Source of the DNA: a virus
Lineage: Duplodnaviria; Caudoviricetes
Virus record (IMG/VR): IMGVR_UViG_3300005282_000008
Location: 1-64,000 of that record
Length of the DNA stretch: 64,000 nt
Direction: 5' to 3' (one strand)
Shown piece after piece: positions 194-3,091 of this stretch; within the stretch, counting starts at the first letter, position 1, and each line of letters opens with the position of its first letter. Under the pieces are notes generated by a model. That model did no database searches, was not told where the DNA came from, and saw nothing but the letters and a program-made list of their open reading frames with translations. Both the position numbers and the translations under genes were made by a program.

Positions 194-360
194 ACTTGAT
201 TTTATAGCCCGCACGATTATTTATTCATTAACTCTCCATGATGAGCACCACACGTATTTTAAGTAACCATCTACTTTAATGTAGACATGAATTACTCCAT
301 GGAATTACGTCTGAATGTGAATAAATTTACGCCCCACAAGTTTGTTATTTTCTAATGGTT
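194..360 (-). ncRNA. hatchet ribozyme-like element with ~90-nt insertion in P4
   Basis: UAACAAA-CUUG-UGGGGCG...CGUGCGGGC-UAUAAAAU-CAAGU follows the hatchet core; P2 ACUUG/CAAGU and P3 GCG/CGU co-vary with the 2460 copy; P4 AUUUAUUCA/UGAAUAAAU; P1 is weak. Confidence 0.7.
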
Positions 361-429
361 GTTATAAATCAGTGGCATATCCTACTTTCACAAGTAAGAT
401 ATGTCTAATAGTAGTATTAACCTGGATAT

Positions 430-834
430 TTACTTCTTAGGCGTCGCAATGCTCGCGACTGCCTTTTCAATAGAATCATCCCTAATGGCCTGTACTCCTT
501 TCTGTGCATAAGTTGCTAATACTATACCGTCATAATATACTTTATTAGAGTTATATTCACTAACGATTGCAACTTTGCTGGCATCCTCCCCGGTTTTCAT
601 GAGAATTGCCATAAATGCCATATCTGGTATACTATAATAAGTATCCAAACATTGTCGTTCCTGTAACTCATTAGCACGTTCTTGTAAACGCGACACTCTT
701 GCTACAGAATCCTGCTTAATAATCGTATCAGTCTTTTCAACTGGTACTTCTTTCTTGTCCCACCAATAGTGATCACAAGAACTCAACGAAATTATGGTCA
801 AAAGACCACAAATCAAAACAAGTAACTTTTTCAT
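430..834 (-). CDS. putative lipoprotein
   Basis: MKK + hydrophobic stretch + LSSC lipobox. Confidence 0.7.
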   Translation of the reverse strand: MKKLLVLICGLLTIISLSSCDHYWWDKKEVPVEKTDTIIKQDSVARVSRLQERANELQERQCLDTYYSIPDMAFMAILMKTGEDASKVAIVSEYNSNKVYYDGIVLATYAQKGVQAIRDDSIEKAVASIATPKK

Positions 835-850
835 TTTTGATAAATGTTAA

Positions 851-1366
851 TTAATAAATAGATATACTTATATCTGAAAGATTACATTGTAATTCACGTC
901 GCATCACGTCTTGCCATTTAATTCGAAGTTTTTGTACATCATCTAAAGACGAATCTTCCTTAAACTTATTTTTTGGAAATTCATATTTAAATGAATAATA
1001 AGACGATGTTTCGTTTATTAATTGCATAGAATCTACTATATCCTTTGCTTCTTTTAAACCTAATCCAGAAACATATTTAAATGCTTTTACTATTTGTAGT
1101 TTTGCATGACAAATATCTCCTGAAAGTTTAAAAGTGAATCCTTTTACGTTGCTTAGAACAAATGTTCTAAGTTTAGGGATCTCTACTGATACGTCTTCTT
1201 TTTTTGTATCTTGAATTATTTCTGTTAGAAAATCTAGAGCAATAAGTGTAACTACAAACTTTTGTACAGAACCAATAGCGCCATCACTTACTGCTACTTT
1301 ATCAACGAGATAATGTACATCTTCAATTTTAACAACTTTCCCAACTAATTCTGATGGATTTTTCAT
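851..1366 (-). CDS. protein with ribosomal protein bL12 (L7/L12) C-terminal domain
   Basis: AKLQIVKAFKYVSGLGLKEAKDIVDS matches the bL12 CTD signature KI.VIK..R..TGLGLKEAKDLVE. Confidence 0.8.
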   Translation of the reverse strand: MKNPSELVGKVVKIEDVHYLVDKVAVSDGAIGSVQKFVVTLIALDFLTEIIQDTKKEDVSVEIPKLRTFVLSNVKGFTFKLSGDICHAKLQIVKAFKYVSGLGLKEAKDIVDSMQLINETSSYYSFKYEFPKNKFKEDSSLDDVQKLRIKWQDVMRRELQCNLSDISISIY

Positions 1367-2236: not shown

Positions 2237-2310
2237 GTGCGCATACCTGAATCGAACAGGTGTACTATTATTCGCCAAAACAATAGGTTCTTCCACTAAA
2301 CTAATGCGCT
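2237..2310 (-). tRNA. tRNA-like element (possibly degenerate tRNA-Gln UUG)
   Basis: Acceptor GCGCAU/AUGCGC, D arm GUUU-AGUGGAA-GAAC, T arm ACCUG-UUCGAUU-CAGGU; anticodon arm longer than canonical; no CCA. Confidence 0.55.
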
Positions 2311-2340: not shown

Positions 2341-2459
2341 ATGCTAACCATAATAGAGACAATAGGAGTCGGAACATCCTATAATTTAGCCAAGGTTTGT
2401 TATGGCTTCACGAGTTTTAATTGGCGTTTTGTATACCTTGTATACACACAATCTCCAAT

Positions 2460-2540
2460 ACATGATTTTAATGTCTGCACTAATACTTACTTATAGTAAG
2501 ATATAAGCCCCACATGCTTGTTACTGATTCTCACAGTTGT
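2460..2540 (-). ncRNA. hatchet self-cleaving ribozyme
   Basis: ACUGUGAGAAUCAGUAACAAGCAUGUGGGGCUUAUAUCUUAC-UAUAA-GUAAGUAUUAGUGCAGACAUUAAAAUCAUGU; very close to the hatchet sequence as I recall it, with P1-P4 all formable. Confidence 0.92.
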
Positions 2541-2543
2541 ACA

Positions 2544-2772: not shown

Positions 2773-3031
2773 TTTTTGTATACTCTATGATAACCCATAG
2801 ATAAGCTTACTGCTCTAGTATACTTTAGAGAAGACCAACTATTCTAATTAAAAATGAATAGGTTCTATTTATAACAAGATTGTGTCTTTTCATCTTTGTT
2901 ATATCCATTTCTCTTTAAGGTTACACTGATCTAATGGAAAGATCACCCTTACTACGTAGATTATAATAGTACTATTTATGTATTACAATTCGTTTTGTGT
3001 ATAAACTTTTCATACTTAAATAATCTATTAT

Positions 3032-3091
3032 TATTGTTGACTCTGCATTCAACAGGCTTGTCACTGTGTATTCGCGCTGCATTAAACAATA
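3032..3091 (-). ncRNA. twister self-cleaving ribozyme (P1 type)
   Basis: UAUUGUU-UAA-UGC-AGC...ACAG-UGACAAGC-CUGU...GCA-GAGUC-AACAAUA; P1, P2, P4, T1 (UGAC/GUCA) and T2 (GC/GC) all formable. Confidence 0.9.

What the first reader, a model, noticed from the sequence alone, without database searches (positions are those of the whole stretch)
194..360. Hatchet ribozyme carrying a 90-nt structured insert that itself contains hatchet half-motifs in reversed order
Seen: the outer pairings are clean (P2 ACUUG/CAAGU, P3 GCG/CGU, 9-bp P4 AUUUAUUCA/UGAAUAAAU) and co-vary with the canonical copy (CAUG/CAUG, GCU/AGU). The P4 loop (228-317) holds CAGACGUAAUUCCAUG (like a hatchet 3' half), a long hairpin AGUAAU...UCUAC-AUUAAA-GUAGA...GUUACU, then ACGUGUGGUGCUCAU (like a hatchet 5' half). 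Pairings CAUG/CGUG, ACGUA/UACGU and UCCAUG/CAUGGA are all possible. Established: the hatchet product crystal structure is a dimer with swapped 3' strands. Inference: a nested or permuted double hatchet mimicking that swap in cis, or a hatchet with an allosteric/cargo domain.
Basis: partly seen in the sequence, partly recalled or inferred. Interest (0 to 1): 0.8.

Follow-up and report, generated by a model that had tools for sequence, protein, structure and literature searches.

The report
Phage hatchet ribozyme, ordinary P4 arm
This is a genuine hatchet self-cleaving ribozyme of a crAss-like phage with a large folded side-arm, as most hatchets of these phages have, and the apparent second ribozyme inside that arm is a coincidence of letters that two related copies do not share.

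Summary
The sequence observation holds. Window 194-359 (minus strand) is a full-length Rfam Hatchet match (79 bits, cut-off 51). It has a 3-bp P1, intact P2, P3 and P4, and a 90-nt insert capping P4. The letters CAGACGU and UGUGGUGC are in the insert.

The nested or permuted double-hatchet reading is not supported:
- Two homologous copies of the same insert (L162, L173) read CAAGCAU / CAAGCGU and GCGUGGUGC / GCGUGUAAUGAC at those places.
- The changes are compensatory for a stem, ACGUA/UACGU, that pairs the two "halves" with each other.
- Covariation also supports a second hairpin and a loop-loop pseudoknot, UCCAUG/CAUGGA. The proposed inner P2 (CAUG/CGUG) has no compensatory change and one mismatch.
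- The inner motif lacks P3 and the core residues C20, G31, G63 and A73-75.

Long structured P4 arms are the norm here. I collected 96 distinct arms of 20-126 nt, in about 39 sequence clusters, from crAss-like contigs. All 73 distinct 3-bp-P1 hatchets from one pattern scan carry P4 inserts of roughly 50-105 nt.

Near-identical hatchet backbones carry unrelated arms, so the whole arm is exchanged as a unit.

Verdict: a new member of a known kind, of low to moderate interest. What the arm does is unknown and inferred only.

The parts
376..403 (-). P0 hairpin upstream of the cleavage site: 12-bp stem with a 4-nt loop. After cleavage it would sit near the 3' end of the upstream RNA.
   Evidence: MFE -19.2 kcal/mol, z = -3.86, 0 of 200 shuffles fold as well. 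An upstream P0 hairpin is a described, dispensable hatchet feature (PMC4604424).
355..356 (-). Predicted cleavage site, immediately 5' of the first P1 nucleotide (between RNA nt 4 and 5). Inferred by alignment, not measured.
   Evidence: alignment to RF02678. (PMC6561176): cleavage lies between -1 and U1, and U1 forms the terminal P1 pair.
345..355 (-). P1, the 3-bp type (UUA/UAA) with a GAAAA loop.
   Evidence: one compensatory change among the three homologs. P1 is 3 bp in 40% of hatchets (PMC4604424).
342..344 (-). Conserved CAA linker (C20-A22 of the crystal numbering).
330..341 (-). P2 5' strand ACUUG, conserved UGG, and P3 5' strand GGCG (includes the G31 equivalent).
318..326 (-). P4 5' strand AUUUAUUCA.
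228..317 (-). 90-nt accessory domain capping P4, modelled as a three-way junction with a pseudoknot.
   Evidence: z = -2.3; six pairs within it change on both sides and stay paired.
306..314 (-). S0/S1 5' strand UCA-G-ACGUA.
   Evidence: helix 5: A-U to G-C and G-C to A-U compensatory changes in L162, wobble pairs in L173.
248..256 (-). S0/S1 3' strand UACGU-G-UGG.
298..303 (-). Pseudoknot 5' strand UCCAUG, in the internal loop between S1 and hairpin 1.
   Evidence: helix 6: 100% paired, with a C-G to U-A compensatory change in L173.
261..297 (-). Hairpin 1, a long imperfect hairpin (GAGUAAUU...UCUAC-AUUAAA-GUAGA...).
231..246 (-). Hairpin 2 (GCUC/GAGU). Its loop holds the pseudoknot 3' strand CAUGGA (window 235-240).
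   Evidence: helix 9: two compensatory pairs (GCCC/GGGU and GACC/GGUU).
219..227 (-). P4 3' strand UGAAUAAAU.
194..215 (-). P3 3' strand, L2 strand (GCGGGCUAUAAAAUC) and P2 3' strand CAAGU.
   Evidence: The deviations from CAGACGUU fall at A65G, a common natural variant, and in the dispensable ACGU segment. Orthologs read GCUU there.

Best explanation
Window 194-359 (minus strand) is a standard, probably active hatchet self-cleaving ribozyme. It lies in an intergenic gap of a minus-strand gene block of a roughly 95-kb crAss-like phage. By homology it cuts the transcript just 5' of its 3-bp P1. That leaves the upstream RNA ending about 20 nt past a 12-bp P0 hairpin, and the downstream RNA beginning with the folded ribozyme. 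Its P4 helix is capped by a 90-nt, lineage-specific, independently folding domain. This domain consists of a stem (S0/S1) made by pairing the two supposed hatchet halves with each other, a long hairpin, a short second hairpin, and a 6-bp pseudoknot between an internal loop and the second hairpin's loop. The hatchet-like letters are a by-product of the present sequence of stem S1 in this one lineage. They are not a second catalytic core. Shown here: family membership of the outer fold, the insert's fold as supported by covariation, non-conservation of the hatchet-like letters, and exchange of whole P4 arms between near-identical backbones. Inferred only: that cleavage occurs, and what the arm does. 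My best guess is a peripheral module that aids folding or protects the 5' end of the downstream RNA, or that binds a lineage-specific factor. It is not needed for chemistry, since P4 loops can be replaced by UUCG in vitro.
For: Outer ribozyme: Rfam 79 bits over the full model. The conserved CAA, UGGG, GC(A/G)G and AAA segments listed are all present. The deviations lie in the ACGU segment, whose UUUU mutant keeps wild-type activity. Insert fold: the MFE of the whole element keeps P2, P3 and P4 and folds the insert as S0/S1 plus two hairpins, and RNAalifold on three homologs gives the same structure. The count of structure pairs: 96.2% of cells paired and 7 pairs changed on both sides, against 3.0 +/- 1.3 in shuffles (2 of 500 reach the observed value) and none when partners are slid; 6 of the 7 lie in the insert. 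Letters: CAGACGU is CAAGCAU in L162 and CAAGCGU in L173, and UGUGGUGC is GCGUGGUGC and GCGUGUAAUGAC; one Logan contig reproduces the L162 variant and a partial contig from a second run shares CAAGC. L162 and the more distant L173 (neighbouring ORF 87% and 74% identical) share CAAGC, which makes the window's letters the derived state. Norm for the group: all 73 distinct 3-bp-P1 hatchets from one scan have P4 inserts of roughly 50-105 nt, and 96 distinct arms of 20-126 nt fall into about 39 clusters. Natural P4 loops are dispensable in vitro (44 nt replaced by UUCG). Exchange: L182 has a near-identical backbone and flanks but an unrelated arm, and contigs in environmental runs skip window 218-326 and carry 56, 70 or 90 other letters instead.
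Against: Only three sequences of this arm class were found, so the covariation statistics are thin, and the alignment is 93% identical. The co-occurrence of both hatchet-like motifs in one 90-nt insert is nominally improbable (5 in 100,000 shuffles). No cleavage data exist for this element. No function for the arm has been shown. The diversity of the arms and their conserved unpaired stretches hint at more than passive stabilisation.
Confidence: 0.85

Rival explanations
1. Nested or circularly permuted double hatchet: the insert forms a second hatchet-like core sharing P4 with the outer one, or supplies a swapped 3' strand in cis as in the crystal dimer.
For: CAGACGU (7 of 7) and UGUGGNGC lie in the right order for a permutation through P4. 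They are flanked by complementary CAUG/CGUG at about the right spacing. The joint shuffle probability is about 5e-5. Joining the hatchet's 3' end to its 5' end is sterically plausible because P1 stacks on P2.
Against: The letters are not conserved in L162 or L173. The inner P2 has no compensatory change and an A-C mismatch in L162, while the same nucleotides show a true compensatory change for the pseudoknot. The inner P3 cannot form (UGCU against CAU-U-C). C20, G31 (the residue one search lists as crucial for cleavage), G63 and most of A73-75 are absent (sequence read). The Hatchet model scores nothing in the insert. The dimer is not required for activity. None of the 95 other arms carries such motifs.
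Confidence: 0.02
2. Evolutionary relic: the arm descends from a piece of another hatchet, for example the junction of a tandem pair, captured into P4 and now decaying, with no present catalytic role.
For: Tandem hatchets about 80 nt apart exist in related phages. The order 3' half, spacer, 5' half is what such a junction would give. The letter coincidence is nominally improbable.
Against: The more distant homolog L173 and the closer L162 share the non-hatchet letters, so the hatchet-like state is most simply derived, not ancestral. No other part of the arm resembles a hatchet. A blastn and nhmmer search of the arm against the whole phage genome and all fetched loci finds only the two homologs.
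Confidence: 0.05
3. Functional add-on: the arm is a regulatory or binding module, such as an allosteric switch of cleavage, a protein or host-factor binding site, or a decoy, rather than a passive structural cap.
For: The fold is under selection. Other arm classes are likewise structured, with what look like pseudoknots, and keep conserved unpaired stretches. Arms are very diverse and are exchanged between backbones, a pattern seen in modules under diversifying selection.
Against: There is no ligand, partner or phenotype. About 39 unrelated classes are hard to reconcile with a shared small-molecule aptamer. P4 loops are dispensable for catalysis in vitro. The MFE fold shows no alternative pairing that would disrupt the core.
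Confidence: 0.3

Closest known systems
Hatchet self-cleaving ribozyme (Rfam RF02678; Weinberg et al. 2015; Li et al. 2015, PMC4604424; Zheng et al. 2019, PMC6561176)
   Same: It makes a full-length model match. It has P1 (3-bp type), P2, P3 and P4, the conserved CAA linker, UGGG, GC(A/G)G and AAA segments, an upstream P0 hairpin, and a large variable P4 loop. The source is a phage metagenome.
   Different: The L2 segment reads GGGCUAU instead of AGACGUU. These changes lie in tolerated positions and are shared with orthologs as GCUU. The P4 arm is a three-way junction with a pseudoknot rather than the simple extended hairpin drawn in the consensus.
Other P4 arm classes of crAss-like phage hatchets (for example the 75-nt arm of L166, L176 and L182, and the 71-nt arm of L094)
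   Same: They occupy the same position, capping P4 between GGGGCGUAA and (A/G)AUCGUGC. They are of similar size and, read by eye from the aligned sequences, appear to be compact pseudoknotted folds. They are exchanged as whole units.
   Different: There is no sequence similarity to the window's arm, and the order of helices differs. In the window the pseudoknot strand lies between S1 and hairpin 1. In the 75-nt class it appears to lie in a hairpin loop.
Peripheral tertiary-stabilising loops of natural hammerhead ribozymes
   Same: They are non-catalytic, lineage-variable peripheral elements attached to a conserved core, and are dispensable in minimal in vitro constructs.
   Different: No contact between the hatchet P4 arm and the core has been shown. 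This is an analogy only.

Membership tests
Hatchet ribozyme (outer element, window 194-359 minus strand) | Covariance-model score above the Rfam gathering cut-off over the full model | tested here: met
   79.0 bits against 51, model positions 1-133 of 133.
Hatchet ribozyme (outer element, window 194-359 minus strand) | Four stems P1-P4, with P1 of 3 or 6 bp | tested here: met
   P1 3 bp, P2 5 bp, P3 4 bp, P4 9 bp. All cells are paired in three homologs, and the MFE keeps P2, P3 and P4.
Hatchet ribozyme (outer element, window 194-359 minus strand) | Highly conserved segments C20-A22, U28-G31, G63-G66 and A73-A75 | tested here: met
   CAA, UGGG, GCGG and AAA(A) are present. A65 is G, as in most 3-bp-P1 hatchets collected.
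Hatchet ribozyme (outer element, window 194-359 minus strand) | Site-specific self-cleavage at the base of P1 | not testable with these tools
   This needs an in vitro transcription and cleavage assay. The contigs laid cannot show RNA ends.
Hatchet ribozyme (proposed inner or permuted copy within window 228-317) | P2 pairing supported across homologs | tested here: not met
   CAUG/CGUG has 0 compensatory changes and an A-C mismatch in L162 in register. The same nucleotides covary with the pseudoknot partner.
Hatchet ribozyme (proposed inner or permuted copy within window 228-317) | P3 helix including the G31-C64 pair | tested here: not met
   Read from the sequence: the 5' strand is UGCU (U at the G31 position) and the 3' strand is CAU-U-C. 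At most one wobble pair can form.
Hatchet ribozyme (proposed inner or permuted copy within window 228-317) | Conserved core residues C20, G31, G63 and A73-75 | tested here: not met
   The equivalents read AUA for CAA, U for G31, U for G63 and AAUUC for UAAAAUC (sequence). In L173 the UGG itself is UAA.
Hatchet ribozyme (proposed inner or permuted copy within window 228-317) | Conservation of the motif letters in homologs | tested here: not met
   CAAGCAU / CAAGCGU and GCGUGGUGC / GCGUGUAAUGAC in L162 / L173.
Hatchet ribozyme (proposed inner or permuted copy within window 228-317) | Detectable by the family model | tested here: inconclusive
   There is no Hatchet hit in the insert at E <= 10.

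The most novel reading that the evidence does not exclude
The window's arm is one allele of a hypervariable set of structured, possibly pseudoknotted RNA modules that ride on hatchet P4 in crAss-like phages. They would be exchanged as cassettes through the conserved core flanks. They would have a role beyond catalysis, for example lineage-specific binding of a phage or host factor, a decoy, or protection of the 5'-OH end of the processed downstream mRNA.
Probability: 0.3. Interest if true: 0.55.

Novelty: new member of a known kind. Interest (0 to 1): 0.27.

Why it matters
The striking claim, a natural nested or permuted double hatchet, would have been a first, but the evidence does not support it. 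What remains is a well-supported hatchet in a defined phage context, with a structural model for its P4 arm backed by covariation. The more useful by-product is that hatchet P4 arms in crAss-like phages are numerous, individually structured, and swapped between otherwise near-identical ribozymes. None of the papers I read mentions this; they treat P4 loops as dispensable. It could give a handle on the still unknown biological role of hatchets.

Tried and rejected
- **Public phage records:** megablast and blastn of the region found no match.
- **Exact 17-mer of the inner motif in viral contigs:** one chance hit, in a GC-rich coding region.
- **Neighbouring ORF in viral contigs:** no relatives.
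- **Two metagenome pattern scans:** the first found nothing, and the second gave four chance hits without hatchets. The first pattern also found nothing in viral contigs.
- **Rfam on the insert alone:** only noise, snoRNA-like hits at E > 0.2.
- **The arm against the whole phage genome and all loci (blastn, nhmmer):** no other copy. Two 14-nt matches lie in coding sequence.
- **Whole-block 3'-strand weight matrix:** it did not detect the inner motif.
- **Tandem reading:** I considered outer 5' half with inner 3' half, plus inner 5' half with outer 3' half. I rejected it because both cross P2 pairings have internal mismatches, whereas outer-outer P2 is perfect.
- **Sequencing runs:** all held only small shares of the stretch. 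No habitat claim is made, and the RNA run's contigs cannot show cleavage ends.
- **One protein look-up returned no DNA, and the 2015 discovery paper is not held.**
- **My column mapping for one stem of the 75-nt arm class was off.** That pseudoknot therefore rests on reading the aligned sequences by eye.

Full report
**What is there.** Rfam's Hatchet model (RF02678) matches window 194-359 on the minus strand across the whole model at 79.0 bits (cut-off 51). A second, compact copy lies at 2460-2543(-) at 80.3 bits. The window is the first 64 kb of a 95,193-base IMG/VR virus record. That record has a large terminase and a portal and giant ORFs of 2,384 and 5,358 aa, so it is a crAss-like phage.

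In RNA numbering (p = 360 minus the window coordinate) the element has these parts:
- P1: a 3-bp UUA/UAA stem with a GAAAA loop
- the CAA linker
- P2: ACUUG/CAAGU
- UGG, then P3: GGCG/CGU-G-C
- P4: a 9-bp stem, capped by 90 nt (window 228-317)

The single-sequence MFE keeps P2, P3 and P4. A 12-bp hairpin lies about 20 nt upstream (window 376-403, z = -3.9). It corresponds to the dispensable P0 hairpin described for hatchets (PMC4604424).

**Is the outer ribozyme intact?** The crystal-structure paper lists the highly conserved segments as C20-A22, U28-G31, G63-G66 and A73-A75 (PMC6561176). The window has CAA, UGGG, GCGG and AAAA at those places. A65 is G, as in most 3-bp-P1 hatchets I collected. 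The remaining deviations (GCUA for ACGU) lie in the L2 segment that the paper calls non-conserved, and its UUUU replacement keeps wild-type activity. Orthologs in related phages read GCUU there. I therefore expect the outer ribozyme to cleave. That is an inference, not a measurement.

**Is a long insert unusual?** No.
- Rfam's own consensus carries about 50 nt in P4. Li et al. replaced 44 natural P4 nucleotides with UUCG without losing activity.
- Terminase-related crAss-like contigs carry one to three hatchets of 108-163 nt.
- A pattern scan for 3-bp-P1 hatchets in viral contigs gave 73 distinct sequences of 109-166 nt, every one with a P4 insert of roughly 50-105 nt.
- Pooling everything fetched gives 96 distinct P4 arms of 20-126 nt in about 39 sequence clusters. 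The window's 110-nt arm (stem included) is long but not the longest.

**The half-motif claim.** The letters are real and nominally improbable. C[AG]GACGU appears in 0.57% of dinucleotide shuffles of the insert, UGUGGNGC in 0.16%, and both in 0.005%. Four points weaken this:
- The test is post hoc.
- The two motifs are not independent, because they pair with each other.
- Over all 96 arms (7,270 nt) each motif occurs exactly once, against about 0.44 expected.
- A weight matrix of the whole 3' strand does not single out the inner site (p = 0.54), and Rfam's Hatchet model finds nothing in the insert alone.

Read against the conserved residues, the inner motif keeps only the less critical letters. 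It has U where G31 should be, and one search lists G31 as the residue crucial for cleavage. It has U for G63, AUA for CAA, and AAUUC for UAAAAUC. Its P3 (UGCU against CAU-U-C) cannot form.

**Homologs decide it.** The neighbouring ORF (window 430-834, minus strand) has relatives at 62-87% identity in ENA, Logan and JGI assemblies. Their contigs all carry a hatchet in the same intergenic position. Two carry the same arm class: L162:1195-1360 (166 nt, ORF 87% identical) and L173:845-1011 (167 nt, ORF 74% identical).

| Motif in the window | L162 | L173 |
|---|---|---|
| CAGACGU | CAAGCAU | CAAGCGU |
| UGUGGUGC | GCGUGGUGC | GCGUGUAAUGAC |

(Alignment A1.) In L173 even the UGG is lost. A Logan contig from a freshwater run reproduces the L162 variant, and a partial contig from a wastewater run shares CAAGC. 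The closer and the more distant homolog agree on the non-hatchet letters. The window's letters are therefore most simply the derived state, which also argues against a decaying relic.

**What the changes do preserve.**
- ACGUA/UACGU becomes GCAUA/UAUGC in L162 (two compensatory pairs) and GCGUA/UGCGU in L173.
- Hairpin 2, GCUC/GAGU, becomes GCCC/GGGU and GACC/GGUU.
- The loop-loop pairing UCCAUG/CAUGGA becomes UCUAUG/CAUAGA in L173.

On the full structure, 96.2% of cells are paired. Seven pairs change on both sides, against 3.0 +/- 1.3 in shuffles (2 of 500 reach the observed value) and zero when partners are slid by 1-3 columns. Six of the seven lie in the insert.

With the inner P2 in place of S1, hairpin 2 and the pseudoknot, that helix has no compensatory change and one mismatch, and the whole structure is no better than shuffles (110 of 500). 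RNAalifold independently returns S0/S1, hairpin 1 and hairpin 2. Three sequences are few, so this is consistent support rather than proof. All of it points one way.

**Model.** The arm is a three-way junction on top of P4. S0/S1 is formed by the two supposed halves. Hairpin 1 extends it, hairpin 2 branches off, and hairpin 2's loop pairs back to the internal loop below hairpin 1. Other arm classes have different sequences. Reading their aligned sequences by eye, at least two of them also look like compact pseudoknotted folds with compensatory changes. That is an eye reading, because my attempt to count one stem formally failed on the column mapping.

**Arms are exchanged as units.**
- L182 has a backbone and flanks nearly identical to the window's (same P1, P2 and downstream sequence) but an unrelated 75-nt arm.
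- In environmental runs, contigs that match the window on both sides skip 217/218/220 to 325/327. That is the P4 stem plus the insert. They carry 56, 70 or 90 other letters there.
- Conversely, single arm classes occur with different P2 sequences.
- Short-homology recombination through the invariant core flanks is a plausible route (inference).

**Context.** All neighbouring genes are on the minus strand. Downstream, across the record's arbitrary end, lie a 144-aa ORF and further small ORFs. After them come a permuted-tmRNA-like RNA and two tRNAs. This matches the gene order in relatives. Upstream lie the compact hatchet, a tRNA-Gln-like gene, a sub-threshold type-P1 twister and a RAGATH-7-like match. 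The hatchet therefore most likely separates two segments of a long processed transcript (inference).

**Verdict.** This is a new member of a known kind: a hatchet with a lineage-specific P4 arm. A 2026 preprint already states that hatchets are largely confined to Crassvirales. The diversity and exchange of structured P4 arms is the part worth following up.

Noticed in passing
window 218-326 (the whole P4 arm); L182; the runs laid: The complete P4 arm is replaced by unrelated sequences (56, 70 or 90 nt, and a 75-nt arm in L182) in phages whose hatchet core and flanks are otherwise near-identical. Across fetched loci there are 96 distinct arms in about 39 clusters, and none is shared between 3-bp-P1 and 6-bp-P1 hatchets.
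   Followed up: partly
L166:3654-3784, L176:1058-1188, L163:1176-1306, L033, L074, L045 and others: A widespread 65-78-nt P4 arm class looks like a pseudoknot: helix order a, b, c, b', a', c', with apparent compensatory changes such as CUUGCA/UGCAAG, CGUAG/CUACG and CGUGAAU/AUUCACG. It also keeps conserved unpaired stretches. None of the papers I read describes it. This rests on reading the alignment by eye, because my formal count for stem c was mis-registered.
   Followed up: partly
window 2460-2543 (-) and 2237-2310 (-): A second hatchet (80.3 bits), of the 6-bp-P1 type with a minimal P4 hairpin, lies about 150 nt upstream of a weak tRNA-Gln(UUG)-like gene (36.5 bits).
   Followed up: no
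window 3035-3088 (-) and 2911-3024 (-): A sub-threshold type-P1 twister match (37.9 bits, cut-off 67.2, E = 1e-6 in a 601-nt search) and a RAGATH-7-like match (28.6 bits, cut-off 111.8) lie upstream on the same strand. The region may be a ribozyme-rich processed array.
   Followed up: partly
L184:2552-2730 (-) = genome 92551-92729; L184:2220-2294 and 2446-2519 (-); L166:4906-5084: A permuted-tmRNA model match (55.9 bits, cut-off 47) followed by two tRNAs lies downstream in the same transcription direction in this phage. The same match occurs in a relative (62.7 bits).
   Followed up: no
L163:2802-2945, L165:2266-2409, L166:4766-4900, L168:2526-2660, L179:3086-3229, L180:1913-2056: RAGATH-9 RNAs (76-82 bits, cut-off 75.2) lie 1-1.6 kb downstream of the orthologous hatchet in related phages. 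None reached the cut-off in the window or in the last 5 kb of its genome.
   Followed up: no
window 851-1366 (-): This 171-aa ORF carries a weak precomputed Pfam Ribosomal_L12 hit in the identical JGI copy and in a relative.
   Followed up: no
window 376-403 (-): A 12-bp P0 hairpin lies about 20 nt upstream of the predicted cut (z = -3.9). It would form a structured 3' end on the upstream cleavage product.
   Followed up: yes
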